Shown here: positions 26,673 through 39,186 of the stretch, one piece after another
Layout of the letters: every line of letters begins with the position of its first letter
Numbering within the stretch: the first letter of the stretch is position 1
Assembly (NCBI GenBank): GCA_026706845.1
Contig: JAPOXY010000082.1
Coordinates: 15,779-79,778 of the forward strand
Direction: 5' to 3'
Length of the DNA stretch: 64,000 nucleotides
From: Gemmatimonadota bacterium
Lineage (GTDB): Bacteria; Latescibacterota; UBA2968
Notes under the pieces: model-generated
What the model was told of the DNA's origin: nothing
The model's database searches: none
What the model saw: only the letters and a program-made list of their open reading frames with translations
Program-made: the position numbers and the translations under genes

Positions 26673-28090
26673 ATACCAAACACCTGACTTCCATACGCGA
26701 GCCTCTGCGGAAATTGCTGGTACAAATTCCCCAGCGCAATCATCCGCTCGTCGGGCATGCATACCACTTCGCCAATGCCAGCCACGAAGGCCAGGACCGC
26801 GATGCCGGGCAACCGTATATTACCCATCCCATCGGCGTGGCACTCATCCTGGCTTCTGAATTGGGCTTTGCACGCGACGCGGAAATGATGGCAGCGGCAC
26901 TATTGCACGACGCCGTTGAAGACTCTGCCCTGACCCTTAACGACATTGAACCCACCTTTGGCAAAAACATTGCCACCCTCGTCAGTGGCGTCACAAAAGT
27001 AGAAGGATCAAAAGCCGGTCGCACTGCGCGGCGCATTGCCACCTTGCAACATCTGTTCACCCACGCCAGAAGAGACCCTCGCGTACTCATTCTCAAATTA
27101 GCTGACCGCATGTATAACATGCGCAGCCTCGACGGTATTTCAGAAATCGACAGGCGACAACGCATTGCGCGAGAAACCATTGATATATACGCGCCCCTAT
27201 CGCACTTGTTGGGCATGGCCCGTATTCGCCGCGAACTCGAAGACCGCAGTCTTTGCTGCCTTGAACCGCGTATCGCGAATCAGATACAGACGACATTTAG
27301 AACAGAACCAACCGGGCACCTCGTGAAATTCCAGGACACAATTCGCAACTTGCTCAACGCCAACGGCGTGCGGACAAGTGTGCGCGTGCAACAGAAAAGT
27401 TTGGGTAGCATTTACCGCAAAATGCAACATCGTCCCCTCAGTCAAATACAGGATCGCTACGCAGTCGAAGTCATTGTCTCGCGCCGTCGTCTGTGTTATT
27501 TGGCTCTGGGCATTCTGCACGAGCACTTCCTGCCCGTTATGGAGCGTTTCAAAGACTTTATTGCCCTGTCCAAACGCAATGGCTACCAGGCCCTGCATAC
27601 CAGTGTCCACCACAAGGACCAACGCTACGAAATCCACATTCAAACCCCTGCAATGCATCGCCTGGGCGAATTTGGCATCGCCGCATTGCGCGGAGACGTA
27701 CAGCACGAAGAGCGACGCACGCGCTGGTTACACGATTTTGTCGATTGGTACGACCGTGCCGATGCCTCCCATCACCTGATGACTGAACTCAAGCGCATCC
27801 TCTTTACCCGGGAAATTGTCGCACTCACCCCCAGAGGGGATCCCTTTATATTGCCCGAAGATGCGACCGTCGTCGATTTTGCCTTTGCCGTGCATACCGA
27901 CCTCGGCTTACAATGCAAAGGAGGCCGTATCAACGGCGCGCGGGCTTATCCGTTCTCCAAACTCGCCTGGGGCGACACCGTTGAAATTGACACCGACCCA
28001 GACCAACATCCCAAAAAGAGCTGGATCAGCCGCGTTAAAACCTACCGCGCCCGCCGTCACATCCAGCACCATCTCAATAGTCAAAAATAA
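26669..28090 (+). CDS. RelA/SpoT homologue with HD hydrolase, synthetase and TGS domains but no C-terminal regulatory half
   Basis: GTG start overlaps the dinG stop (GTGA). HD motif LLHDAVEDS..RVLILKLADRMYNMRSL; synthetase motifs SIYRKM, DRYAVEVIV, GYQALHTSV, YEIHIQT; TGS domain; protein ends ~30 aa after TGS (473 aa). Confidence 0.8.
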   Translation: MNTKHLTSIREPLRKLLVQIPQRNHPLVGHAYHFANASHEGQDRDAGQPYITHPIGVALILASELGFARDAEMMAAALLHDAVEDSALTLNDIEPTFGKNIATLVSGVTKVEGSKAGRTARRIATLQHLFTHARRDPRVLILKLADRMYNMRSLDGISEIDRRQRIARETIDIYAPLSHLLGMARIRRELEDRSLCCLEPRIANQIQTTFRTEPTGHLVKFQDTIRNLLNANGVRTSVRVQQKSLGSIYRKMQHRPLSQIQDRYAVEVIVSRRRLCYLALGILHEHFLPVMERFKDFIALSKRNGYQALHTSVHHKDQRYEIHIQTPAMHRLGEFGIAALRGDVQHEERRTRWLHDFVDWYDRADASHHLMTELKRILFTREIVALTPRGDPFILPEDATVVDFAFAVHTDLGLQCKGGRINGARAYPFSKLAWGDTVEIDTDPDQHPKKSWISRVKTYRARRHIQHHLNSQK

Positions 28091-28091
28091 T

Positions 28092-28409
28092 ATGCCTCGC
28101 TTTCTCTTATTTTTTGCCATTATCCTGATTTTTGCGTGTTCGGGAACCAATCCCGTTCTCGAAAGTCAAAAGGTGAAGGTCTCGCAAGCCCAAAAGACGC
28201 TGCGCGAAGAACGCATCCGCCTGCAAACCCTGCGCGACAGCCTGCAAAGCGAAATTCGCCGCAATATCGCCCTGGGCATCTCAAAAGAACAGGCAGAACA
28301 AATAGAACATGCCCGTATCAAAATTCAGGAAACCATTGTCGTGGCATCGGAGAGAAATTTGGCGGCGCAACGCGCATTGCTCGATTCCCTCACAAAATAT
28401 TCTCCCTGA
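28092..28409 (+). CDS. small coiled-coil lipoprotein
   Basis: MPRFLLFFAIILIFACSG lipobox, followed by a Q/R/E-rich helical region. Confidence 0.5.
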   Translation: MPRFLLFFAIILIFACSGTNPVLESQKVKVSQAQKTLREERIRLQTLRDSLQSEIRRNIALGISKEQAEQIEHARIKIQETIVVASERNLAAQRALLDSLTKYSP

Positions 28410-28434
28410 GGCTTTGTATTTACAAATATTTACA

Positions 28435-28469
28435 AATATTAACTTGCTCTAATAGCACAAATTTATCAT
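28435..28469 (+). promoter_or_regulatory. operator/promoter-like element copy 1 upstream of the DUF1800-DUF1501 operon
   Basis: aatattaacTTGCTCTAATAGCACAAatttatcat; contains a 17-bp imperfect dyad TTGCTCTA-A-TAGCACAA. Also reads as TTGCTC-17 nt-CATCAT (promoter-like). Confidence 0.45.
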
Positions 28470-28520
28470 CATAACTTATACCTGTATTTAATATCCAATA
28501 GCAAATATTTGTATGTCCAA

Positions 28521-28609: not shown

Positions 28610-30082
28610 GTGTCCAATCGCGAACATTTTCCTGTTGCGCCCAAACTTGCGTATGCATCCACGGGACTCGAACCGTATATCCCCTCGGCAGAACAGCCGT
28701 GGGACGAGCACCGGGCCGCACACCTCTTGCGGCGCACCCTGATTGGCCCAACGCCAAAAGAAATTTCAGAAGCTGTGCAAAGCACACCAGAAGCCGTTGT
28801 AGATCGCCTTCTGGAAATGCCTTTTTTGCCACCGAATCCACCCGCTCAGTGGGTTTATCAGGATCCATTTCAAAAACCCAATCAAGACCAGCGCAAAATC
28901 GAGCGCGCGCGCGTTGACGAGACCCGCGCCTGGTGGATGGCACTCATCGTCAACCAGGGGTTCTCAATTCAAGAGCGCATGGTGCTCTTCTGGCACGATC
29001 ACTTTGCCACCCAGGCAAAAGATGTCAGACGTCCACAGTGGATGTATCTCCAGAATTTCCTGTTTCGCAAACACGCCGTCGGCAACTTCAAAACAATCGT
29101 CGAGGGCGTCACGCGCGATCCAGCCATGATCTACTACCTCGACAGCAACTCCAACAGAGTGGGAAGACCCAATGAAAATTACGCCCGAGAACTCATGGAA
29201 TTGTTCACCATGGGCGAGGGCAGTACCTACACAGAACACGACATCGGAGAAGCGGCTCGCGCACTCACGGGGTGGATTGTCGTAGGCAGGCAACCCACTT
29301 TTAGAGAGAACCGATTCGACAAAGGCCAGAAGACATTCCTTGGACAAACCGGCAACTTCAATGAGCAAGACATTATCGATATCATCTTCCAGCAAGAAGT
29401 CACAGCCGAATTTATATGCGGCAAACTCTATCGCGAATTTGTCTATGAGCATCCAGACAAAAACGTCGTCTCGGAACTCGCGCAAATCATGCGCGACAAC
29501 AACTACGAAATCAAACCGGTTTTGAAGACATTGCTCTTGAGCCAGCACTTCTTCGATCCAGCCATCATCGGTGCCAAAATCAAAAGCCCCGTCGAACTCG
29601 TCGCTGGCACAGCGCGCAGTCTCGGTTTCAAAGCTGGCACAGGCAGGAGCATCAGTTCCGAGTACCTCGTTTACATCGCTCAGGTGCTCGGTCAAAAACT
29701 GCTCGATCCCCCCAATGTAGCCGGGTGGCCGGGATATCGACTGTGGATCAGTACGTCAACACTGCCCGAACGCCACAAAATGACCGACGAAATGGTCGAT
29801 GCCAGACCGCGCAATCCCAATCGTTACACCATCATCAACCCGGATACCGTGGGATTCGTCAAGGCATTTCCCGAACCCTATGACGCGGAAAAACTCGTTC
29901 GCGACATGGGAGAGTGTCTGACGGCTTTTCCGGTTGACGAATATCGCCTCGAAATGTTTTTGGAGACACTCCTCGAAGGCGCCGATGTCTATGACTGGAA
30001 TCCCGACGCGATTGCAGCACCCCGACGCATCAAGAATATTCTCAAACTCATCTTTGAATTGCCCGACTATCAACTGAATTAG
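28610..30082 (+). CDS. DUF1800 family protein
   Basis: GTG start behind GAGGAGG RBS; LFWHDHFATQAKDV..MIYYLDSNSN.. match DUF1800 hallmarks. Immediately followed by a DUF1501 gene, which is the canonical pairing. Confidence 0.75.
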   Translation: MSNREHFPVAPKLAYASTGLEPYIPSAEQPWDEHRAAHLLRRTLIGPTPKEISEAVQSTPEAVVDRLLEMPFLPPNPPAQWVYQDPFQKPNQDQRKIERARVDETRAWWMALIVNQGFSIQERMVLFWHDHFATQAKDVRRPQWMYLQNFLFRKHAVGNFKTIVEGVTRDPAMIYYLDSNSNRVGRPNENYARELMELFTMGEGSTYTEHDIGEAARALTGWIVVGRQPTFRENRFDKGQKTFLGQTGNFNEQDIIDIIFQQEVTAEFICGKLYREFVYEHPDKNVVSELAQIMRDNNYEIKPVLKTLLLSQHFFDPAIIGAKIKSPVELVAGTARSLGFKAGTGRSISSEYLVYIAQVLGQKLLDPPNVAGWPGYRLWISTSTLPERHKMTDEMVDARPRNPNRYTIINPDTVGFVKAFPEPYDAEKLVRDMGECLTAFPVDEYRLEMFLETLLEGADVYDWNPDAIAAPRRIKNILKLIFELPDYQLN

Positions 30083-30121: not shown

Positions 30122-31555
30122 ATGAACAGACGCGACTTTATGAAAAATGCGACTCGAGGTGGTGCCGGATTTGCGCTCGGTGGTTTTATGACGCGGGCTT
30201 ATGGGCGCGCCGAAGCCGTTGGTCCCCTGGCCGCAGCAGCCCTCAGCGAGACCGACCGCGTGCTCGTTATCATTCGCCTCAATGGTGGTAATGACGGCCT
30301 CAACACCCTGGTCAATTTTGAAAACGATGCCTATTATCAGGCGCGTCCCAAAATCCACATCAAAAAATCAGAAGCCCTCAGACTCACCCCAGCACAGGGC
30401 CTGCATCCTCGACTCACCGGATTCAAAGAACTCTATGACGAAGGTCAAATGATGATCATGCAGGGGGTGGGTTATCCCAATCCCAACCGATCACACTTCC
30501 GGTCAACCGACATCTGGTTGACCGCATCGAATTCCAATGAATTTTTGAACCACGGTTGGCTGGGGCGCTATTTTGAATCCCAGACTCCGGGCTTCCCGGA
30601 CACCTTGCCAGAACATCCTCTTGCCGTTGACATCGGTCCCGTGCTTTCTCTTGCCTTATTGGGCAAAAACGGTGCCATGGGCATTGCCCTGCGCAACCCC
30701 AGGCAATTTGTCAATCTCGTGGAGCAGGGCAACAAAATTATCGAAGATGGTAAAATTCCCACACCGGCAGGATATGAACTCGACTTTATCCGCCGCATCA
30801 ACTTTGAATCCCTGCAATATTCCTCACAGGTCAGAGATGCCGCAAATAAAGGCGCGAACAGGGTTGAATACCCCACCGGGAATTCGCTCGCCAACCAGCT
30901 CAGTCTGGTCGCGCGGTTGATCGCAGGCGGCTTGAAATCCAAAGTGTACCTGGTCTCACAGGGCGGATACGACACACATTCCAATCAGCTCAACCGCCAC
31001 AACACCCTGATGGGATATCTCAACGACGCAGTCACGTCTTTTGTTCAAGACCTGCGGCAACATCAGTTACAAGACCGCGTGCTCGGCATGAGCATTTCGG
31101 AATTTGGTCGTCGAACCAAAGAAAACGGCAGCGCAGGTACCGATCACGGCACATCAGCGCCCATGTTCTTCTTTGGCCCATCGGTTCAGGCGGGCATTGC
31201 AGGTCCATCCCCCAACTTTGGGCAGGTTGACAGGCGCGGTGACTTTTACTACGATCACGATTTCCGCCATGTCTATGCCTCAGTGCTCAACCAGTGGTTT
31301 GACGTATCGCAAGATGTTGTCTCAAGCATCTTTTCATCCAATACGTCTCACATACCCATTCTCAGACCATCACCACTATCACCCCTCGAACTCGCCAAAG
31401 TTGACTTTAATGCCGACGGCAAACTCGACTTTACCGACTTTCTCGAATTTGCCCAGGCATTCGGTACCAACGAAACCAAATACGACTTAGACGGCGATGG
31501 CAACGTTGGATTTGGCGATTTCTTGAGATTTGTCGATGCTTACCGAAACCGTTAA
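30122..31555 (+). CDS. DUF1501 (sulfatase/alkaline-phosphatase-like) protein with Tat signal and C-terminal dockerin-like tail
   Basis: MNRRDFMKNATRGGAGFALGG twin-arginine signal; GTDHGTSAPMFFFGPSVQAGIAG DUF1501 core. C-terminus DFNADGKLDFTDFLEFAQAFG + DLDGDGNVGFGDFLRFVDAY is a two-repeat dockerin/EF-hand-like pattern. Confidence 0.85.
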   Translation: MNRRDFMKNATRGGAGFALGGFMTRAYGRAEAVGPLAAAALSETDRVLVIIRLNGGNDGLNTLVNFENDAYYQARPKIHIKKSEALRLTPAQGLHPRLTGFKELYDEGQMMIMQGVGYPNPNRSHFRSTDIWLTASNSNEFLNHGWLGRYFESQTPGFPDTLPEHPLAVDIGPVLSLALLGKNGAMGIALRNPRQFVNLVEQGNKIIEDGKIPTPAGYELDFIRRINFESLQYSSQVRDAANKGANRVEYPTGNSLANQLSLVARLIAGGLKSKVYLVSQGGYDTHSNQLNRHNTLMGYLNDAVTSFVQDLRQHQLQDRVLGMSISEFGRRTKENGSAGTDHGTSAPMFFFGPSVQAGIAGPSPNFGQVDRRGDFYYDHDFRHVYASVLNQWFDVSQDVVSSIFSSNTSHIPILRPSPLSPLELAKVDFNADGKLDFTDFLEFAQAFGTNETKYDLDGDGNVGFGDFLRFVDAYRNR

Positions 31556-31582
31556 GCATCCAGCATCGTCTGAAACCATAAA

Positions 31583-31610
31583 AGCCCCGGTCCTGCACCG
31601 GGGCTTTACT
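31583..31610 (+). terminator. possible terminator after the DUF1800-DUF1501 operon
   Basis: AGCCCCGGTcctgcACCGGGGCT: 9-bp stem, followed by only a short TTT tract. Confidence 0.45.
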
Positions 31611-31637: not shown

Positions 31638-33782
31638 ATGCAAAAATCCAAACGCGAAGTCACAATCTCCAACCGCTATCTCTACTTCTACGCCAGCCTG
31701 GTCAAACGCATCTACGGTCTGATCATCCGAAATGAACACAAAAACCAACCCGACGAGCGCTACACGGGCCATCTGGATGAAGATGGAATACCGAGTTCCC
31801 AGGATGCGCCTCATACAAAAGGCAGACTGCCCGACACACCTGTCCAGGATGAAATTGTCCTGTTTCGCTTTCGAAAACGCCTGCTCATAGGAACATGCCA
31901 GGCTGTTTTGCCCCGCAAAATTTCCGAAATCGCAGTCTTATCAGAAGATGGCCGACGCCTCCGCTTTCACCACCCCAACCTCGTCTATCTCACCGGCACC
32001 TCATCGCGCGATGTCCCACTCAAAACTTATGCAATGACCGTCCGCGCTTTGAGCCGGGAAATAGACCTCGAAGACGTATGGGAAATCGCCGTTGAAGCTG
32101 CGACCCCGCTTCCACTTTCAGAAATCGCCGACCTCTTCTACGATACAGAAATCGATGCGACACAATGGATCGCCCTCTATCTTCACCTGCACGGCGCCTG
32201 TCCTTATTTTCAACCTCTATCTTCCAACTCGTATTCGCCCTATACGGTTGATCAGGCATACTTCCGCCGTCAACACATCAGCCGCAAAAAAGATCGGGAT
32301 GAAGAACGCGAAGAATTTATCCATGTCATGGCGAATAATACCGAATCCATTGCAGAACACACACTGACCCAACGCCAGCAAACCTATCTGGAACAGATTC
32401 GACAATACGCATTGTGGGGCAGCGAATCCCAACACGCGACTCACGCTCAGGCATTGATCTCTGAAATTTGCAAAACCAAAAAAAACCGCCAAAAATCCGC
32501 AGTCGAACTACTCATCAAAAAAAAGGTCTGGAAACGCAATCAAAACCTCGACTTGCTCCGCGCCGAAGTTCCAACTTCATTTTTAGACCTCGTCATCCGC
32601 CAGGCAGAAACACTTGTGCCCACTTGTGGCAACCTGAAAAAACAACCCGTCTTTGTGATACACCCGCCCGATCATCCAAACATCGCCCTCTCGTATCGCC
32701 GCCGGTTCTTTGGAGGCGCAGAGTTTGGCGTACACATACCAGATATCGGCGCACTCATCCCCAAAAATTCGCACATCGACCGCGACGCTGCCGAGCGCAT
32801 GGCGCACATACCCTTTCCCGATCAACCCATTCCCATGCTACCCACGCGCTTTTCACACGACCTGGGCCAATTCCAGAGCGACAAAGCGCATCCAGCACTC
32901 AGCATCTTCTGGCGCGTGAATAGGGATAGCCACATCAAAGATTTTTGCATTGCGCAAACGGCCGCAATCAATAAAGCGGATCTTTCACCTGAAAACATTG
33001 ACCATGCACTGAATGACCCCGCTCACCCGCAGCACCGCGCCATACAATTCTTCTCGCAATTATCCGCACGCCTCCTCAAAAAGAGGCAAACAGCCATTCA
33101 CGACCTCGAGGAACAATCACCTCCAAATCACGCCCATCACATTGCCCGTGAACTATCTCTGCTCGCTGGCATAGCCGTTGGTCGGTGGTGCGAAAATAAA
33201 GGGATTCCCGCAATTTACGAAACACGCGATCCCATTGAAAATACCGAGTCTATCGTACAAATCTCTCACCCCATCGTGCGCCGCCACGAACTTCACCGCC
33301 AAACCCCGAACACCGGCCTCAGTACAACACCAGAAACACATCACGGCTATGGCATCTCGCATTATTGTCCCATCACCCAACCCACAACCAGATACACAGA
33401 CCTCGTAATGCAACGCCAGATCGATCACTACCTTAAAACCGACCAATCCCTCTACACAGTTGACGACCTCAACACCCTGCGCTACCGCATGTGGGAAACG
33501 CAGGACCTCATCGACGACCTGGTACACCGCCATACCCGCAACTTAATGTTACAATCGTGGGAAAATCAAATTGGTCGTGAATTTCGCGCCGTTGTCCTCC
33601 ACCTCAAAATGCGCGGCGTCCTCGTCGAACTCCTCAACCATCCCTTCAAAACAGTCATCTATCCGGGTTATCCCGTAGAAGTCGGCGACGAAATTGACCT
33701 GCGCCTGACGGGTATTGATCGCTGGAAAGGCTGGGCACACTTCACAGAAAAAACCTACCAGCAATCAGCAGTCGGCTTTTAG
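31638..33782 (+). CDS. RNB-domain (RNase II/R family) protein with substituted catalytic aspartates, plus C-terminal S1-like domain
   Basis: RNB motifs II-IV are alignable (VHIPDIGALIPKNSHIDRDAAERMAHIPFPDQPIPMLP; HHGYGISHYCPITQPTTRYTDLVMQRQI). Motif I reads FVIHPPDHPNIAL where RNase II has FTIDSASTEDMDDAL. Confidence 0.7.
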   Translation: MQKSKREVTISNRYLYFYASLVKRIYGLIIRNEHKNQPDERYTGHLDEDGIPSSQDAPHTKGRLPDTPVQDEIVLFRFRKRLLIGTCQAVLPRKISEIAVLSEDGRRLRFHHPNLVYLTGTSSRDVPLKTYAMTVRALSREIDLEDVWEIAVEAATPLPLSEIADLFYDTEIDATQWIALYLHLHGACPYFQPLSSNSYSPYTVDQAYFRRQHISRKKDRDEEREEFIHVMANNTESIAEHTLTQRQQTYLEQIRQYALWGSESQHATHAQALISEICKTKKNRQKSAVELLIKKKVWKRNQNLDLLRAEVPTSFLDLVIRQAETLVPTCGNLKKQPVFVIHPPDHPNIALSYRRRFFGGAEFGVHIPDIGALIPKNSHIDRDAAERMAHIPFPDQPIPMLPTRFSHDLGQFQSDKAHPALSIFWRVNRDSHIKDFCIAQTAAINKADLSPENIDHALNDPAHPQHRAIQFFSQLSARLLKKRQTAIHDLEEQSPPNHAHHIARELSLLAGIAVGRWCENKGIPAIYETRDPIENTESIVQISHPIVRRHELHRQTPNTGLSTTPETHHGYGISHYCPITQPTTRYTDLVMQRQIDHYLKTDQSLYTVDDLNTLRYRMWETQDLIDDLVHRHTRNLMLQSWENQIGREFRAVVLHLKMRGVLVELLNHPFKTVIYPGYPVEVGDEIDLRLTGIDRWKGWAHFTEKTYQQSAVGF

Positions 33783-34375
33783 CCCCCTTCCCACGCCGGA
33801 TACAAATCGTGCTCAATGCCCAATAAACTCAAAATTCGGCCAACCACGAAATCTGCCAAATCATCAAACGTCTCCGGCTTCTGATAAAATGCTGGCATCG
33901 CCGGCACCACAACAGCACCCGCTTCGGCCACCGCCACCATATTGCGCAATTGAATCAAATTCATCGGCGTCTCCCGCGGCACAATGATGAGCTTGCGGTG
34001 CTCTTTCAAAGCGACATCAGCGGCGCGCTCAATCAAATTGCGCGACAACCCATGTGCTATACTCGCCAGTGTTTTCATCGAACACGGCACCACCACCATG
34101 CCGTCTGATCGCGCCGAACCACTCGCCAGCGTTGCAGCGAGATTCTTAAGTGGATGCAGCGCCATATTATCTACCGAAACACCGTAAAGTTCCCGAATGA
34201 ATCTCCCAAAATCTCGCTGTTTTCCCTCAAAGCCCGCCTCGTCTCGAAGCAACATCCAGCCAAATTCGGATATCACCACATCCACCGCAACCTCGCGCAT
34301 CAGCAATGCGCGCAACGTGCGCAACGCATAAATAGCCCCACTTGCTCCGGTAATTGCAACCGTAATACGTCTCAT
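33779..34375 (-). CDS. ubiX: UbiX/Pad1 flavin prenyltransferase
   Basis: MRRITVAITGASGAIYALRTLRAL..; flavoprotein fold, ~198 aa from the internal Met. Confidence 0.85.
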   Translation of the reverse strand: MRRITVAITGASGAIYALRTLRALLMREVAVDVVISEFGWMLLRDEAGFEGKQRDFGRFIRELYGVSVDNMALHPLKNLAATLASGSARSDGMVVVPCSMKTLASIAHGLSRNLIERAADVALKEHRKLIIVPRETPMNLIQLRNMVAVAEAGAVVVPAMPAFYQKPETFDDLADFVVGRILSLLGIEHDLYPAWEGG

Positions 34376-34394
34376 AGCAAACAGGCCCCCAAGA

Positions 34395-35249
34395 TTACAA
34401 CAACAAATCGGCCAGTGTCCCGGCAAAATACACCACACTAACTACACCATTCATTGTCAAAGACGCCATACCCGCCTTTGACAAATCCCGATGTCTCACC
34501 AGATAGTGCTCATAAACCAGCAAGCCGCCCACGCACACCACGCCAGCCACATAAATCATCCCCAGATCAAACACCTGCCCCACGCACACCATCAAACCAA
34601 AAGCAATCACATGAAATATTCGCGCAATCCACAATGCGGGACCAACCCCAAATTTCTGCGGAATCGAATACACACCAAACCGTTGATCAAACTCGGCATC
34701 CTGACAGGCGTAAATCACGTCAAACCCCGCGACCCACATCAACACCGCGCCACCGAGCAGTAAAATCTTTGCATCCAATTGTCCCGTCACAGCGATCCAC
34801 GCTCCCACAGGCGCAAGAGACAATGCCAAACCGAGAAAAAGCTGCGTAGTCCACGTAAAACGCTTCGTATAAGAATAAAAAAACACAATGCCCAATGCCA
34901 CGGGCGACAGCATCAAACACAGTGAATTTAAATTATAAGCCGCAAAAACGAGCAGCGCAGAAAAAACGCACACAAACACCTTCACAGCACCTGCAGAAAT
35001 AACTCCCCGCGGCAACTCGCGATTGGCCGTGCGCAGATTGGCCGCATCCATCTTCCGATCCACGAGCCGATTAAAACCCATGGCAGCACTTCTCGCGCCC
35101 ACCATCGCCACCACAATCCAGAACACCTGTTCGGACGAAATCCCGTATCCAGCCGCCGCCAACGCCGCGCCTGAAAGCGCGAATGGCAAGGCAAAAATAC
35201 TGTGGCCGAATTTAATCATCCGACCATAAGTGACAATACCCTCAATCAT
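34395..35249 (-). CDS. UbiA family aromatic prenyltransferase (4-hydroxybenzoate polyprenyltransferase/MqnP-like)
   Basis: Multi-TM protein; FNRLVDRKMDAANLRTANRELPRG Asp-rich motif region. Start taken at MIEGIVTYG to avoid overlapping the upstream gene. Confidence 0.8.
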   Translation of the reverse strand: MIEGIVTYGRMIKFGHSIFALPFALSGAALAAAGYGISSEQVFWIVVAMVGARSAAMGFNRLVDRKMDAANLRTANRELPRGVISAGAVKVFVCVFSALLVFAAYNLNSLCLMLSPVALGIVFFYSYTKRFTWTTQLFLGLALSLAPVGAWIAVTGQLDAKILLLGGAVLMWVAGFDVIYACQDAEFDQRFGVYSIPQKFGVGPALWIARIFHVIAFGLMVCVGQVFDLGMIYVAGVVCVGGLLVYEHYLVRHRDLSKAGMASLTMNGVVSVVYFAGTLADLLL

Positions 35250-35256
35250 CACAGTC

Positions 35257-36120
35257 TTACCTTTGCCGGATAAACTTTTGCAACCGGCCATCTGTCTGCA
35301 CTTCTCCCACGTACAAATCGCCGTGTGAATCCAGCCAGATACCGTGCGGACACTTTTTGAACTCACCCGGAATATCGCTTTCAACCCCGCGCCCCCACTC
35401 GGACAATTTCTCGCCATCAACCGTCCAGATACTCACCCGCTGGTCCAATTCCGCGATATAAACCACGCCATCTTCGTCATCAATATAAACCGTATCGGGA
35501 TGGTGCAAACCCGTCCACTCGCCCTGAAAATTGCCCTCAGTATCAAAAAACTGAATGCGATTATTGCTCCGATCCGCCACCCACAAACGGTCATCCTTAT
35601 CGACCCGCACAGAATGCACCAGATCAAATTGCCCCGGACCAGTACCCGGTTCGCCCCAGGACTTGATCAACTCGCCATCGGGAGTAAACTTGTGCATTCT
35701 CGCATTGCCATACCCATCGGACACGTACATAAACCCTTCGGAGTCAAATGCCACATCGGTCGGCAACCGAAACGGCTCGCCCTCAGCGCCTTCCTGGTCG
35801 GGTGTCCCCACCGTCATCAACAACTCGCCATCGCAACTAAACTTCCGCAAACAATGCGTATTGCGCTCCACACAATAGACGTGATCTTCCGCATCAATAT
35901 AAATGCCATGCGCATCTTTCAACACATCTTCGCCCCACGAAGACAAAAAATTTCCCTCGCGATCAAATACCACCATCGGGTGCTCGCTGCGACTGTACAC
36001 ATAAACGCGATCCTGCGAATCAACAGCCACCGCCGGTACCCATCCAAACGACCAGCCTTCGGGTAGCGTCCACCAATTTTCCTGCACCGTATAGACATAG
36101 TCCCCTTGTCCAAATGTCAT
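35257..36120 (-). CDS. NHL-repeat six-bladed beta-propeller protein
   Basis: Repeated blade motifs (DRVYVYSRSEH; HGIYIDAEDHVYCVERNTH; PTDVAFDSEGFMYVSDGYGNARMHKF; HSVRVDKDDRLWVADRSNNRIQFF; IWLDSHGDLYVGE); no signal peptide. Confidence 0.75.
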   Translation of the reverse strand: MTFGQGDYVYTVQENWWTLPEGWSFGWVPAVAVDSQDRVYVYSRSEHPMVVFDREGNFLSSWGEDVLKDAHGIYIDAEDHVYCVERNTHCLRKFSCDGELLMTVGTPDQEGAEGEPFRLPTDVAFDSEGFMYVSDGYGNARMHKFTPDGELIKSWGEPGTGPGQFDLVHSVRVDKDDRLWVADRSNNRIQFFDTEGNFQGEWTGLHHPDTVYIDDEDGVVYIAELDQRVSIWTVDGEKLSEWGRGVESDIPGEFKKCPHGIWLDSHGDLYVGEVQTDGRLQKFIRQR

Positions 36121-36229
36121 CACATCCTCCTTGTCAGGTAAGAGAGGCATCCCTGCCTCGACATTGAAGTTTCACACATGCGTACGTCAATCACACGCCA
36201 TTGCAATATACACTACAATTTGAGCGCAA

Positions 36230-36281: not shown

Positions 36282-38804
36282 TCAGGCTGTTCTTCCGAAA
36301 ACACTGGTAAAGAAAATAAAATCGCCGAAATTGACCTGGCCATCCCCATTCAAATCAAAACGCGCATCGGGACTCTCAGAACTAAACGCGGCAACAAACA
36401 GGAGAAAATCGCCAAAATCGATCTTTCCACTGCCATCAAAATCCGCTTGAGCAGCTATCTCCTTCAAAGGAAGAAACACAGCAGGCTGAGAACGCACCGC
36501 CATACCGCGCGGCCTATCCTCAAAATTCAGCGTTCTCAGAATCTGAAACGACTCTGCATCAAAAATAACCAGCTCATTCGAATTCTGATTCGCCACATAC
36601 ACCTGCGATCCGTCGCGCGACACAAACAAAGAGCGCGTCTCTTCACCTTCGGGCAAAACCTTTACAGTATTCACAACGCGATTTTGCGCCACATCGACGA
36701 CGACTAATTGGGCATTCGTGCGATCAGTTCCGTATAACCGCGAACCATCCGGCGATAAAGCGAGGCGAAATATCCCGGCATCCATCCGAATCGTTGTCAC
36801 CACAGACTCCGACTCGGTATCAATCACCGCAATACCGCCACTGCCAACGTCACCAAAGTCCCCCCCCGACACATACAACCGCTTCCCATCCGCAGATATA
36901 ACCAGTGAGCGGGGTTCCTCAATCACATCAATGCGACCAATAGTCGCCCTGCGTGCGGTATCGACAACCAGTACCTGATTGCCATTGATATCTGTAACAT
37001 AAAGCCGCTTCCCATCCGGGTGAATCGCCACACCATAAGGACCGCGTTCTCCGCTAATCGGCACCCGAATGCGAGAACGCACAGTCAAACTCGCCACATC
37101 TATAACCGAAATACTCTTAGATTCTGAATTGGTGACATAGAGCAACTGCCCATTCGCGCTCAAAGCGAGATCCAAAGGCGCAGTATCAACTTTAATATTC
37201 GCCGCCACCTGATGCGTGGCAGTCTCGATAACTGTGACCCGATTCTCAGATGTACCGACAGATCCCCCCGTATTGGCGACAAACAAATAGCGCTGATCCG
37301 GTGTCATCAAAACGCTCAAAGGCACCACGCCAGTGGGAATGCGCGCCACCTCTTCGCCCGTACCCATATCGATAACAGCCACCACATCGACATCTCGCAA
37401 TGCAACAAAAAGTATGGGCGATCCAGACAATGATATCACATCGAATTGCAGCATGGGCAAATCAGATGCTGGCGAAGGCGTCTCATTGCCATCGCCATCG
37501 CGCGCAATCACCCGATACTCAATCCTCGATCCCACACTTTGCCCGTCGAGTTCCGCGGCAAAAATATCGTTCCCCGTAGGGATCATTGGCAGCACCTGCT
37601 CGCCCCCGCCATTGATCCGATAACGCAATTCAACAGTAGCCACCCCTGTATTATCGGTCACCCTTGCCGAAAAGCGATAGGGACCATTGGGATCGGGCGT
37701 ATTTGCTGGAAAAATAGTCTCCCGAATAAAAGGTGCGCCCGGTGCAGAAGGTCCAATCGCAAAATCGATATTTTCTATCACGCGGTCGATTTCGACGCGT
37801 ATGATCTGGGCATTATCCCGCACAAACGCATTGTTGTAATACTCTCTATCAAGTCTTGCTTCATATAACGTCTGAAAAATACCACCAAAATTATCAGCAG
37901 AAATTGCAGGATGGTGGCGCTCAATCGCAACGTGATAATCGCCCGGAGGCAAACCGAGAATTTCATAACGCCCATCGCCATTGGGTCCCTTCTGTTCACC
38001 GGCCGCCCCCGACAGAGCGCTCGCGACAAACATAAGGGAATCTGTTCCCGCCTGATAGACCACCACATGCACGCCAAATGCGGGACCATCGGCACTCAAG
38101 ACCTGCCCACGCACACCGCCGGTCAGCCCTTCTACCGGATATATCGCCGTTATACCTGCACGGTCATCGGCTTCCAGAGAACGCTCTGCACGCGGTGCCT
38201 GGGACGAAGCAAAGGGAAACATTGTCGCGCGCAGTTCGGGGGCACCCACCCAGGGGCTATGATCCAGCCCCAACAAATGACCGATTTCATGCGTCATTAT
38301 AGCGTGAAGATCAAACAGATCCTCAGGCGTATTATTCTCCTCAATCGAAAACTGATGATCCCGCCCATTAAAAACAATATCCACATCCGTAATCAAACCA
38401 TCGTCGTTATTGATGATCCGGGCAAATGCAACGACCCCCGTACCCTCGGGTGCGCCAATAACCTCTCCCGTCGCATCGTAAAAAATCACATTGCGATTAT
38501 CATTACCCGACACTTCAAGCTGTGCTGTACCTTCATATTCAAAGGTAATAAATGCCGACGGCACCGCGCTCCAGTCGTTAAACCCCTGCTGTGCAATCCG
38601 CACCACCTCGGTCTCGGGAAAGGGAAAACTCCCGGTATTGACCACAAAGGGAATACCAGCACCGGCCCGAGAAGGCGACCAGCGATTTGTCACAATACGC
38701 CCACGCGAATTTGTCTCTGTAAGAATCACATACCCCTCTGCACCAACCCACAGAGCGAGCAGAAGGCCAAAAACGCAAATTTTTTTCACAATATTAATCC
38801 TCAT
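36282..38804 (-). CDS. secreted multidomain zinc metalloprotease: metzincin (matrixin-like) + CarbopepD-regulatory-like + YVTN/NHL-type beta-propeller + C-terminal dockerin-like repeats
   Basis: Signal peptide MRINIVKKICVFGLLLALWVGA; HEIGHLLGLDHS with Met-turn ATMFP; repeated LYVTN/RLYV blade motifs; C-terminus DFDGSGKIDFGDFLLFVAAF + DLNGDGQVNFGDFIFFTSVF. Start taken at the signal-peptide Met rather than the ORF start 38900. Confidence 0.75.
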   Translation of the reverse strand: MRINIVKKICVFGLLLALWVGAEGYVILTETNSRGRIVTNRWSPSRAGAGIPFVVNTGSFPFPETEVVRIAQQGFNDWSAVPSAFITFEYEGTAQLEVSGNDNRNVIFYDATGEVIGAPEGTGVVAFARIINNDDGLITDVDIVFNGRDHQFSIEENNTPEDLFDLHAIMTHEIGHLLGLDHSPWVGAPELRATMFPFASSQAPRAERSLEADDRAGITAIYPVEGLTGGVRGQVLSADGPAFGVHVVVYQAGTDSLMFVASALSGAAGEQKGPNGDGRYEILGLPPGDYHVAIERHHPAISADNFGGIFQTLYEARLDREYYNNAFVRDNAQIIRVEIDRVIENIDFAIGPSAPGAPFIRETIFPANTPDPNGPYRFSARVTDNTGVATVELRYRINGGGEQVLPMIPTGNDIFAAELDGQSVGSRIEYRVIARDGDGNETPSPASDLPMLQFDVISLSGSPILFVALRDVDVVAVIDMGTGEEVARIPTGVVPLSVLMTPDQRYLFVANTGGSVGTSENRVTVIETATHQVAANIKVDTAPLDLALSANGQLLYVTNSESKSISVIDVASLTVRSRIRVPISGERGPYGVAIHPDGKRLYVTDINGNQVLVVDTARRATIGRIDVIEEPRSLVISADGKRLYVSGGDFGDVGSGGIAVIDTESESVVTTIRMDAGIFRLALSPDGSRLYGTDRTNAQLVVVDVAQNRVVNTVKVLPEGEETRSLFVSRDGSQVYVANQNSNELVIFDAESFQILRTLNFEDRPRGMAVRSQPAVFLPLKEIAAQADFDGSGKIDFGDFLLFVAAFSSESPDARFDLNGDGQVNFGDFIFFTSVFGRTA

Positions 38805-39186
38805 GTTTGAGTACTGGTTCTGATCGCCTTGCATCCACCATCCACACCTCGGCTTTGCCGTCTCGATCAAAATCCGCTTCTGCATACGCCTTGAAATCAT
38901 CCTCTAAAACGGTCACCCGATAGCGAAAACGTCCGGGTACATTATTGAGTTGTAAAATACCACCATTATTTTCTTCATCAATAGGCAAATAAGTGCCATA
39001 TTCTGCGCGATATGCGTGTTGTAGAGCCGCAATGCGTTGCAACATAATGCGGGCGCGTTCTCGCTCTGCGTCTTCAGGCGTGCGATATGTAAACTGATAA
39101 AACAACACCACGCATATCAATACCAGAAGACCAATCACAACACCCACTTGAGGCAACCGATCTCGATATTTCCAAAATAACATCAC
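38794..39186 (-). CDS. hypothetical membrane-anchored protein (possibly pilin-like fold)
   Basis: Single N-terminal TM (VGVVIGLLVLICVVLFY), then ~90 aa ending RIAALQHAYRAEYGTY..; no prepilin peptidase motif. Overlaps both neighbours. Confidence 0.45.
   Translation of the reverse strand: MMLFWKYRDRLPQVGVVIGLLVLICVVLFYQFTYRTPEDAERERARIMLQRIAALQHAYRAEYGTYLPIDEENNGGILQLNNVPGRFRYRVTVLEDDFKAYAEADFDRDGKAEVWMVDARRSEPVLKHED

What the first reader, a model, noticed from the sequence alone, without database searches (positions are those of the whole stretch)
31638..33782. RNB-family protein whose catalytic DxxxxDxDD motif is replaced (probable pseudo-exoribonuclease)
The 714-aa protein aligns convincingly with RNase II/R RNB motifs II-IV and carries a C-terminal S1-like module. 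At motif I, RNase II has FTIDSASTEDMDDAL with four Mg-binding Asp. This protein reads FVIHPPDHPNIAL: the positions equivalent to Asp201, Asp209 and Asp210 are His, Asn and Ile. The motif-IV SPIRRY is altered to QPTTRY. Its N-terminal ~330 aa is unrelated to the usual cold-shock domains. An RNB fold without the metal-binding Asp residues would be expected to bind RNA but not degrade it.
Basis: partly seen in the sequence, partly recalled or inferred. Interest (0 to 1): 0.6.

Follow-up and report, generated by a model that had tools for sequence, protein, structure and literature searches.

The report
Bacterial RNase II relative without catalytic residues
This Latescibacterota gene encodes a conserved protein with the fold of an RNA-degrading RNase II enzyme that has lost every residue needed to cut RNA, so it most likely binds RNA without degrading it, as the yeast protein Ssd1 does.

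Summary
ORF 31638-33782 (+) encodes a 714-aa RNB-domain protein (Pfam RNB E=2.7e-36). Mapped onto E. coli RNase II, D201, D209, D210, Y253, Y313 and R500 become H342, N348, I349, P392, P451 and T584, and D207 is deleted. Five of these are invariant in 106/106 active relatives and Y313 in 105/106. The loss is shared by a whole clade (98% to about 33% identity, mostly Candidatus Latescibacterota MAGs), and the replacement residues vary. The gene is not decaying: dN/dS is about 0.20, like its neighbours, and every domain scores below 0.35. At deep divergence the best-conserved parts are a clade-specific basic, Tyr-rich 45-aa N-terminal extension, a KOW/Tudor-like barrel and the S1 domain. The RNB domain changed from acidic to basic. 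The N-terminus is the known Dss1-type barrel-WH-HTH arrangement plus the new extension. A second, probably independent inactive clade also exists. The best reading is a non-catalytic, probably RNA-binding pseudo-exoribonuclease, a bacterial counterpart of fungal Ssd1. RNA binding and the biological role are inferred only. I found no paper describing a bacterial RNB pseudonuclease. Databases annotate these proteins as ribonucleases.

The parts
31638..33782 (+). Complete ORF of 714 aa plus stop codon: the RNB-family pseudo-exoribonuclease (clade A)
   Evidence: dN/dS has a median of 0.198 against 13 orthologues.
31638..31772 (+). Clade-specific N-terminal extension, aa 1-45. It is basic and Tyr-rich, with consensus E-I-x-[IV]-[SA]-N-R-[YF]-[LI]-Y-Y-Y-A-[SN]-[LF]-x-[KD]-[KR]-I-Y-G-F-V-x-R-R..E-[RH]-Y-x-G. 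It is absent from all active relatives.
   Evidence: It is the most conserved segment in deep clade-A comparisons (55% identity, net charge +4.1). Invariant residues are N12, Y16, Y18, A19, Y26, G27 and G44. It has no Pfam match. Its fold is unresolved: a helix in one model and strands in the other, both at low pLDDT.
31773..31838 (+). Variable linker of low complexity, aa 46-67
   Evidence: 16% identity across the clade, variable length, pLDDT below 50.
31839..32012 (+). N-terminal SH3/KOW/Tudor-like beta-barrel, aa 68-125, with a conserved basic face (R77, R79, K80, R81, R106)
32013..32252 (+). Winged-helix domain, aa 126-205 (acidic)
   Evidence: Weak Pfam PF25255 hit at 137-203, E=0.0029 and below cutoff here, but recorded among the precomputed domains of several orthologues. 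AF2 helices and strands at 129-201. Net charge -7.6.
32253..32627 (+). Double HTH domain, aa 206-330
   Evidence: Pfam PF23161 HTH_RNase_II, E=7.4e-9, residues 211-304. AF2 helices at 204-325.
32628..33572 (+). RNB domain, aa 331-645. The fold is retained but the catalytic and 3'-end-binding residues are lost.
   Evidence: Pfam RNB E=2.7e-36. Foldseek hits to RNase R, RNase II, Dss1 and Ssd1. Fold residues are kept, including H366, D369, R387, P394, R483, E505, H568, G572, Y586 and Q594. dN/dS is 0.17. Net charge is +4.2 against -7.0 in active relatives.
32652..32693 (+). Remnant of motif I, F339-VIHPPDHPNIAL-S352: H342 for D201, a deletion at D207, N348 for D209 and I349 for D210
   Evidence: mapping to E. 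coli rnb; all clade members. Position 348 switches between N, D and E among proteins at least 85% identical.
33378..33395 (+). Remnant of motif IV, Q581-PTTRY-586: T584 for R500, with R585 and Y586 retained
   Evidence: R500 is R in 106/106 active relatives and is T4 N4 A3 D2 K E R1 in clade A.
33573..33752 (+). C-terminal S1-like beta-barrel, aa 646-705
   Evidence: Weak Pfam PF18614 hit at 648-694. AF2 strands at 648-704. It has the lowest dN/dS of any domain (0.097). Identity is 46% in clade A against 22% in active relatives.
31581..31607 (+). GC-rich hairpin with an 11-bp stem between the DUF1501 stop codon (31555) and the ATG. It is probably the intrinsic terminator of the upstream gene and so marks the 5' boundary of the transcription unit.
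   Evidence: hairpin; sequence. It is conserved in L001-L013, mostly with a GGGGCTTTTT tail, and L014 has an analogous hairpin with a T-run.

Best explanation
[quoted passage not shown] It descends from the Dss1/DrII-type branch, which has the domain order KOW-like barrel, winged helix, double HTH, RNB, S1. Shown here: the RNB fold is kept, but the residues that bind Mg2+, position the 3'-terminal nucleotides and perform hydrolysis are substituted or deleted (D201, D207, D209, D210, Y253, Y313, R500). The same is true across a clade that reaches down to about 33% identity, and the gene is under purifying selection. Inferred: the protein no longer degrades RNA and works by binding, most likely to RNA. 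The likely binding elements are the parts under strongest clade-specific constraint: the new basic, Tyr-rich N-terminal extension, the basic face of the KOW-like barrel and the S1 domain. The RNB body, which has changed from acidic to basic, may contribute. The expected outcome is that it protects, sequesters or regulates bound RNAs instead of shortening them, by analogy with fungal Ssd1. The target RNAs and the physiological role are unknown.
For: Homology and fold: RNB E=2.7e-36; AF2 pLDDT 79.3 with Foldseek hits to the whole RNase II/R family. Loss of the catalytic apparatus: D201, D209, D210, Y253 and R500 are 106/106 conserved and Y313 is 105/106 in active relatives, and all six are replaced in the window protein and across 17 clade-A representatives. 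The D210 position is consistently hydrophobic (L10 I4 V M). D207 is deleted in 14/17. The hairpin aligned with F358 is deleted in the window's sub-lineage. The replacement residues are not conserved, and position 348 switches between N, D and E among near-identical proteins, so no alternative catalytic constellation is being selected. D-to-N at the third Asp alone abolishes activity in other RNB enzymes (PMC8097288). The gene is functional: an intact ORF in more than 70 protein clusters, median dN/dS 0.198 against 0.04-0.22 for neighbours, and all domains between 0.10 and 0.34. Shift of constraint and charge: deep-pair identity is 0.55 for the N-extension, 0.49 for the barrel, 0.46 for S1 and 0.37 for RNB (the lowest), whereas in active relatives RNB is the highest at 0.35 and the other domains are 0.19-0.25. 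RNB net charge is +4.2 against -7.0, and median pI is 8.2 against 5.5. Precedent: the Ssd1 pseudonuclease lost the same residues and gained a new RNA site on its N-terminal barrels. A second inactive clade (B) shows the same pattern of losses and the same charge shift.
Against: There is no biochemical evidence for lack of activity or for RNA binding. HELZ2 shows that an RNB enzyme can tolerate loss of one conserved Asp, the second one. One or two acidic residues persist in the loop in many members: D345 is about 90% conserved, and position 348 is E or D in 12/17. The RNB domain is still well constrained among close relatives (dN/dS 0.17). That is compatible with a structural or binding role, but equally with some unrecognised activity. 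I could not inspect model coordinates, so whether the RNA channel is open, collapsed or plugged is unknown. The fold of the N-extension is unresolved. Gene context gives no clear functional partner.
Confidence: 0.62

Rival explanations
1. It is a non-catalytic scaffold that works through protein-protein contacts and not mainly through RNA binding. For example, it could be a partner subunit of a helicase or nuclease, as Dss1 pairs with the Suv3 helicase in mtEXO. One candidate partner is the DinG-like helicase with a DEDDh exonuclease domain encoded about 5 kb upstream.
For: The auxiliary-domain architecture is the same as in Dss1, whose WH and HTH domains form the interface with Suv3. The WH and HTH domains here are acidic (-7.6 and -3.2), which does not suit nucleic-acid binding. 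A co-directional string of DinG-RNase_T helicase, RelA/SpoT, small lipoprotein, (DUF1800-DUF1501) and this gene recurs in the window, L001-L013, L014, L019 and L023.
Against: The string is absent in three other lineages (L016, L021, L024). Neighbour proteins are still 60-82% identical in the lineages that keep it, so the synteny may be simple inheritance. The string mixes secreted and cytoplasmic proteins, and a terminator-like hairpin separates this gene from DUF1501. No interaction has been tested.
Confidence: 0.18
2. It is still a nuclease or some other hydrolase that uses a non-canonical active site, for example His/Asp/Asn ligands (H342, D345, H346, N348) that bind a different metal.
For: The window protein has H, D, H and N in the motif I loop. 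D345 is about 90% conserved, and position 348 is often E or D. The RNB domain has dN/dS 0.17. HELZ2 is active despite one Asp-to-Asn change.
Against: H342 and H346 are not conserved: position 342 is H/Q/R/A/G/L and 346 is H/L/T/I/Q/G. The D210 position is always hydrophobic. R500, Y253 and Y313, which are needed for catalysis and for holding the 3' end, are all lost. Position 348 drifts among N, D, E, P, Q and A. The third-Asp D-to-N change alone inactivates other RNB enzymes.
Confidence: 0.07
3. It is a decaying relic (an expressed pseudogene) of an RNase II gene and has no function.
For: All catalytic residues are lost. The protein evolves faster than its neighbours at depth (35-44% identity against 60-82%). 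Part of the RNB domain is deleted in the window's sub-lineage.
Against: The full-length ORF is intact in more than 70 clusters, including many complete MAG chromosomes. dN/dS is about 0.2 overall and at most 0.34 in every domain. A newly acquired N-terminal extension is strongly conserved, with 55% identity between members whose overall identity is below 50%.
Confidence: 0.03

Closest known systems
Ssd1 (S. cerevisiae), Sts5 (S. pombe) and related fungal RNase II-family pseudonucleases (PDB 7AM1; PMC8934651, PMC8097288)
   Same: They have an RNB fold in which the Mg-binding Asp residues are lost, they are retained under selection as non-enzymatic proteins, and new constraint and a positively charged surface appear on the N-terminal beta-barrel domains. 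The structural match by Foldseek is E=2.6e-17. Pseudonucleases evolved repeatedly within the fungal family, and here two bacterial clades appear to have done so as well.
   Different: The origin is independent. Ssd1 derives from eukaryotic Dis3L2 and has CSD1 and CSD2. This protein is bacterial, derives from the barrel-WH-HTH (Dss1/DrII-type) branch, and adds an unrelated 45-aa N-terminal extension. Ssd1's funnel is blocked by specific insertions; whether this protein's channel is blocked is unknown, and its RNB domain is shorter than in active relatives, not longer. RNA binding has been demonstrated for Ssd1 but not here.
Dss1, the RNB exoribonuclease of the yeast mitochondrial degradosome mtEXO (PDB 6F3H; PMC5758563)
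   Different: Dss1 is an active nuclease with an intact Asp motif (the crystal form is an engineered D477N mutant), and it acts in an obligate complex with the Suv3 helicase. This protein lacks the catalytic residues, and no partner is known.
DrII, the Deinococcus radiodurans RNase II-family enzyme (PDB 2R7D)
   Same: It is the best PDB sequence match (E=8e-11) and has the highest target TM-score (0.71-0.73). It is a bacterial RNB enzyme in which an HTH domain replaces the cold-shock domains.
   Different: DrII keeps FAIDDEGNQDPDDA and SPMRRY (alignment) and is an active enzyme. It is shorter (469 aa) and lacks the barrel, the WH domain and the N-terminal extension.
E. coli RNase II D209N, the engineered inactive mutant used for the RNA complex structure (PDB 2IX1)
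   Same: The window protein naturally has Asn at the position equivalent to D209. The RNB folds are homologous (Foldseek E=8e-20).
   Different: The mutant differs from an active enzyme by one residue and still threads RNA to the active site. The window protein has also lost D201, D207, D210, Y253, Y313, R500 and the F358 hairpin, and it has different auxiliary domains.
Human HELZ2 RNB domain (PMC10516660)
   Same: It is an RNB domain with a natural substitution of a conserved motif I Asp.
   Different: HELZ2 lacks only the second Asp and is experimentally active, while mutating the third Asp kills it. The protein here lacks all four.

Membership tests
RNase II/RNB superfamily (Pfam PF00773), by homology and fold | A significant match to the RNB domain profile, and the RNB alpha/beta fold | tested here: met
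   PF00773 gives E=2.7e-36 and 125.9 bits against a cutoff of 29.3, with profile positions 3-325 of 326 covered. Foldseek gives E from 1e-16 to 1e-26 to all solved RNB proteins.
Active RNB 3'-5' exoribonucleases (RNase II / RNase R / Dis3 type) | Four conserved motif I aspartates (E. coli D201, D207, D209, D210) that coordinate Mg2+ and the 3'-OH | tested here: not met
   They become H342, a deletion, N348 and I349. Active relatives have D 106/106, D/E 106/106, D 106/106 and D 106/106.
Active RNB 3'-5' exoribonucleases (RNase II / RNase R / Dis3 type) | The motif IV arginine (E. coli R500 in SPIRKY) and the aromatic residues that hold the 3'-terminal nucleotides (Y253, Y313, F358) | tested here: not met
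   R500 becomes T584, Y253 becomes P392 and Y313 becomes P451, and the hairpin aligned with F358 is deleted. R500 and Y253 are invariant in 106/106 active relatives and Y313 in 105/106.
Active RNB 3'-5' exoribonucleases (RNase II / RNase R / Dis3 type) | Measured hydrolytic 3'-5' exoribonuclease activity | not testable with these tools
   This needs purified protein and an RNA degradation assay.
Canonical RNase II/R domain architecture (NCBIfam TIGR00358, TIGR02063, TIGR02062) | [quoted passage not shown] | tested here: not met
   Scores are 46-79 bits against cutoffs of 369-642. No CSD or OB_RNB Pfam hit was found, whereas a true RNase R (P0052) carries PF08206 and PF17876.
Dss1/DrII-type RNB proteins (barrel-WH-HTH-RNB-S1) | A double HTH domain (PF23161) directly N-terminal to the RNB domain | tested here: met
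   PF23161 gives E=7.4e-9 and 36.8 bits against a cutoff of 24.7, at residues 211-304. It is present in all orthologues.
Dss1/DrII-type RNB proteins (barrel-WH-HTH-RNB-S1) | A winged-helix domain (PF25255) and an N-terminal KOW-like beta-barrel | tested here: met
Ssd1-type RNB pseudonucleases | Loss of the catalytic Asp residues while the protein is retained under purifying selection | tested here: met
Ssd1-type RNB pseudonucleases | Descent from the eukaryotic Dis3L2 lineage, with CSD1 and CSD2 and funnel-blocking insertions | tested here: not met
   The protein is bacterial and nests among bacterial barrel-WH-HTH enzymes. It has no CSDs. Its RNB domain is shorter than in active relatives, not longer. 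It works like an Ssd1 but is not a member of that family.
Ssd1-type RNB pseudonucleases | Demonstrated sequence-specific RNA binding at an alternative surface | not testable with these tools
   There is only indirect support: basic, highly conserved N-terminal modules and a charge reversal of the RNB domain.
Known anti-phage defence systems (PADLOC) | A match to a defence-system protein model | tested here: not met
   No PADLOC hit at E<=0.01.

The most novel reading that the evidence does not exclude
The pseudo-RNB is the non-catalytic RNA-threading or specificity subunit of a bacterial complex resembling mtEXO. It would pair with a helicase, for example the DinG-like helicase with a DEDDh exonuclease domain in the same gene string, next to RelA/SpoT. 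Catalysis would then be supplied by the partner's exonuclease domain, while the dead RNB channel and the new N-terminal module select or hold RNA 3' ends.
Probability: 0.08. Interest if true: 0.75.

Novelty: new variant of a known kind. Interest (0 to 1): 0.5.

Why it matters
The described pseudonucleases of the RNase II family are fungal (Ssd1, Sts5). My literature searches found no bacterial example, although the searchable library omits most subscription journals. This family shows that the same change, from RNA-degrading enzyme to probable RNA-binding protein, also happened in bacteria, probably twice. It started from a different domain architecture and gained a new, strongly conserved N-terminal module. 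That gives a natural comparison for asking which parts of the RNB scaffold are reused when catalysis is lost. It may also point to an uncharacterised post-transcriptional regulator in the uncultured phylum Latescibacterota. There is a practical point too: public databases name these proteins 'RNB domain-containing ribonuclease' or 'exoribonuclease-2'. RNA-decay capacity inferred from those annotations is therefore overstated for these genomes.

Tried and rejected
1. Conserved operon partner. I looked at the context of seven divergent clade-A members. A DinG-exonuclease / RelA-SpoT / small lipoprotein / (DUF1800-DUF1501) string recurs in four lineages and is absent in three. The neighbours in those four lineages are still 60-82% identical, so this is weak evidence for a functional link.
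2. The 112-aa ORF at 28136-28474 as a conserved partner: rejected. The conserved small gene lies in another frame (about 28098-28400) and looks like a lipoprotein.
3. The N-extension as a degenerate cold-shock or RNP1-like domain (KRIYGFVIR against KGFGFI): permissive Pfam scans of six divergent N-termini gave no support.
4. Fold of the N-extension: the two AF2 runs disagree, with a helix at 12-26 in one and four strands in the other, both at pLDDT below 60. This is unresolved.
5. A co-resident active paralogue. P0069 is not syntenic with the clade-A gene. The search is word-indexed, so this is not conclusive.
6. Another RNB gene in the window: none.
7. Defence-system membership: none.
8. Rfam RNA families in the window: none. 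No sigma-70-like promoter was found near the gene.
9. The first NJ tree used Kimura distances that saturated and produced NaNs. I replaced it with Poisson distances.
Full report
**Observation.** The ORF is at exactly 31638..33782 on the + strand. It starts with ATG and encodes 714 aa. Pfam finds an RNB domain at residues 332-600 (E=2.7e-36) and the double HTH domain of RNase II-type proteins (PF23161, E=7.4e-9, residues 211-304). It also gives weak, sub-threshold hits to the RNase II winged-helix domain (PF25255, residues 137-203) and the RNase II C-terminal S1 domain (PF18614, residues 648-694). The NCBIfam models for RNase II and RNase R score far below their cutoffs, at 46-79 bits against 369-642. 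The best PDB sequence match is the Deinococcus radiodurans RNase II-family enzyme 2r7d (E=8e-11). That alignment already places FVIHPP--DHPNIAL opposite FAIDDEGNQDPDDAV, and QPTTRY opposite SPMRRY.

**Residue mapping.** I did not want to rely on remembered numbering. I fetched rnb from E. coli K-12 and confirmed that D201, D207, D209, D210, Y253, Y313, F358, E390, R500 and E542 are the residues expected. I then added that sequence to a 168-sequence MAFFT alignment of homologues. The window protein has H342 for D201, a 2-residue deletion at D207, N348 for D209, I349 for D210, P392 for Y253, P451 for Y313 and T584 for R500. R585 and Y586 are retained (K501 and Y502 in E. coli). In the 106 active relatives in the same alignment, D201, D209, D210, Y253 and R500 are conserved 106/106, Y313 is 105/106, and D207 is D or E in all. 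In the window's sub-lineage, the roughly 20-residue hairpin aligned with F358 is also deleted.

**It is a family, not a single protein.** The window is from Candidatus Latescibacterota. Thirteen related loci, mostly complete MAG chromosomes of 4.7-6.5 Mb, carry orthologues at 78-91% identity. Word-indexed searches found more than 70 protein clusters of full-length relatives down to about 33% identity. An exhaustive HMMER scan of 1.84 billion representative proteins gave 4093 hits, 83 of them below 1e-30.
- Every member of this clade (clade A, including P0060) lacks the catalytic set.
- The replacement residues differ between members. Position 342 is H/Q/R/A/G/L, and position 584 is T/N/A/D/K/E. 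The D210 position is always hydrophobic.
- Position 348 (D209) switches between N, D and E among proteins that are 88-98% identical to the query. That is the behaviour of a neutral site, not a catalytic one.
- The roughly 660-aa relatives at 23-31% identity keep ID..x[TS]xDxDD and SPxRRY intact, and they align from about residue 70 of the query. One of the closest of them, P0069, is also labelled Latescibacterota.

A second group of about 690-700 aa (clade B: P0120, P0137, P0149, P0155, P0175, P0178, P0182, P0191) has also lost D201, D210, Y253, Y313 and R500. In an NJ tree with 200 bootstraps, clade A plus P0060 has 100% support, clade B has 100%, and a sister relationship between them has only 18%. 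The two clades nest beside different active subgroups. Two independent losses are therefore the more likely history, but NJ on saturated distances is not decisive.

**Not a dead gene.** Nei-Gojobori dN/dS between the window and its 13 orthologues has a median of 0.198, within the 0.04-0.22 range of the six flanking genes. Per domain the values are:

| Domain | dN/dS |
|---|---|
| S1 | 0.10 |
| RNB | 0.17 |
| Barrel | 0.21 |
| Winged helix | 0.25 |
| N-extension | 0.29 |
| Linker | 0.32 |
| Double HTH | 0.34 |

So the RNB fold itself is still maintained. At greater depth the protein evolves faster than its neighbours. It is 44% identical to its L014 orthologue where the neighbours are 66-82%, and 35% identical in L019 where the neighbours are 60%.

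**Where the constraint now lies.** Among deep clade-A pairs, the best-conserved segment is a 45-aa N-terminal extension that no active relative has (55% identity, net charge +4.1). It has invariant N12, Y16, Y18, A19, Y26, G27 and G44. Next come the following beta-barrel (49%) and the S1 domain (46%). The RNB domain is the least conserved (37%). In active relatives the order is reversed, with RNB at 35% and the auxiliary domains at 19-25%. The RNB domain's net charge moves from -7.0 in active relatives to +4.2 in clade A and +8.6 in clade B. Median pI moves from 5.5 to 8.2 and 7.7.

**Structure.** The full-length AF2 model (pLDDT 79.3, pTM 0.65) has these parts:
- a disordered or uncertain N-terminus at residues 1-63;
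- a small barrel at 73-111;
- helical WH and HTH domains at 129-325;
- the RNB domain at 335-645;
- an S1-like barrel at 648-704.

**Context.** In the window the gene ends a co-directional string:

| Gene | Coordinates |
|---|---|
| DinG-like helicase with an RNase_T/DEDDh domain | 23820-26672 |
| RelA/SpoT homologue (start overlaps the helicase stop by 4 nt) | 26669-28090 |
| Small lipoprotein-like gene | about 28098-28400 |
| DUF1800 | 28610-30082 |
| DUF1501 | 30122-31555 |
| The RNB pseudo-gene | 31638-33782 |

It converges on UbiX and UbiA on the other strand. The string recurs in L014 and L023. L019 has it without the DUF1800-DUF1501 pair. L016, L021 and L024 have unrelated neighbours. 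A conserved GC-rich hairpin followed by a T-run lies between DUF1501 and the ATG, which suggests a separate transcription unit. I treat the synteny as a weak lead only. The protein matches no PADLOC defence model, the window has no Rfam family, and it holds no second RNB gene.

**Interpretation.** What is shown:
- RNB homology and fold;
- clade-wide loss of every residue known to be needed for Mg2+ binding, 3'-end positioning and hydrolysis;
- purifying selection on the gene;
- gain of a conserved basic N-terminal module;
- reversal of the RNB domain's charge.

What follows from established knowledge: D-to-N at the third Asp alone abolishes activity in RNase II, Dis3, Dis3L2 and HELZ2. A protein lacking all four aspartates plus R500 should therefore be inactive by the canonical mechanism. 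What is inferred: the protein acts by binding RNA, mainly through the N-extension, the KOW-like barrel and S1, as Ssd1 does through the outer face of its cold-shock domains after losing its active site.

The caveats are these. There is no assay. HELZ2 shows tolerance to loss of one Asp. Acidic residues remain at positions 345 and 348 in many members. I could not inspect coordinates to see the state of the channel.

**Comparison and novelty.** The protein works like Ssd1 but is not a member of that family. It is bacterial, it derives from the barrel-WH-HTH branch instead of Dis3L2, it has no CSDs, and it carries a different novel module. Full-text searches found papers only on the fungal pseudonucleases and general remarks that some RNB proteins lost activity. 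They found nothing on a bacterial case or on Latescibacterota RNase II. Databases name these proteins as ribonucleases. I rate it a new variant of a known kind, with moderate interest (0.5). The finding is clear, well supported and a neat case of convergence, but the biological role is unknown and the concept of an RNB pseudonuclease is already established.

Noticed in passing
window 1-64000: GC skew is strongly and uniformly negative across the whole window (-0.07 to -0.32 per 2 kb, with a monotonic cumulative curve). It holds whichever strand the genes are on. This is much stronger than typical bacterial strand asymmetry.
   Followed up: no
window 23820-28090 (+): A 950-aa DinG-like helicase with an N-terminal RNase_T/DEDDh exonuclease domain is followed by a 473-aa RelA/SpoT homologue (HD, RelA_SpoT and TGS domains) whose start overlaps the helicase stop by 4 nt. 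The pair is conserved in L001, L014, L019 and L023 at 60-94% identity. The helicase matches PADLOC type IV DinG models, but no CRISPR context was seen.
   Followed up: partly
window about 28098-28400 (+), inside ORF 27816-28409: A conserved gene for a small (~110 aa) lipoprotein-like protein with a coiled-coil look (signal peptide followed by Cys in the orthologues) follows RelA/SpoT. The mechanically listed 112-aa ORF at 28136-28474 is in the wrong frame and is low-complexity sequence.
   Followed up: partly
window 31581-31607: A perfect 11-bp GC-rich hairpin lies between DUF1501 and the RNB pseudo-gene, only 30 nt before the ATG. It is conserved in relatives, mostly with a GGGGCTTTTT tail. 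It is probably a terminator, which raises the question of how the downstream gene is transcribed (by read-through or from an internal promoter).
   Followed up: partly
proteins P0120, P0137, P0149, P0155, P0175, P0178, P0182, P0191 (not in the window): A second clade of bacterial barrel-WH-HTH RNB proteins (~690-700 aa, with their own ~30-aa N-terminal extension containing a W-Y motif) has also lost D201, D210, Y253, Y313 and R500 and has a basic RNB domain (+8.6). In the NJ tree it groups apart from clade A. Its taxonomy and gene context were not examined.
   Followed up: partly
window 30122-31555 (+) and 36282-38900 (-): The DUF1501 protein and the 872-aa metalloprotease/beta-propeller protein both end in EF-hand- or dockerin-like repeats (D-x-[DN]-G-D-G-x-[VI]-x-F-x-D-F), which suggests a shared Ca-dependent anchoring or targeting module on secreted proteins.
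   Followed up: no
window 34395-35420 (-) against 35257-36150 (-) and 33779-34438 (-): The longest UbiA ORF overlaps the upstream NHL-repeat ORF by about 160 nt and the UbiX ORF by about 40 nt. The Pfam UbiA match starts at residue 76, so the true UbiA start is probably downstream of the listed TTG.
   Followed up: no
L026 10001-11998 (P0069): One of the closest active-type relatives (intact DxxxxxDxDD, 665 aa, also Latescibacterota) sits between a GT4 glycosyltransferase and a PmbA/TldD pair. That context is unrelated to the context of the inactive clade.
   Followed up: partly
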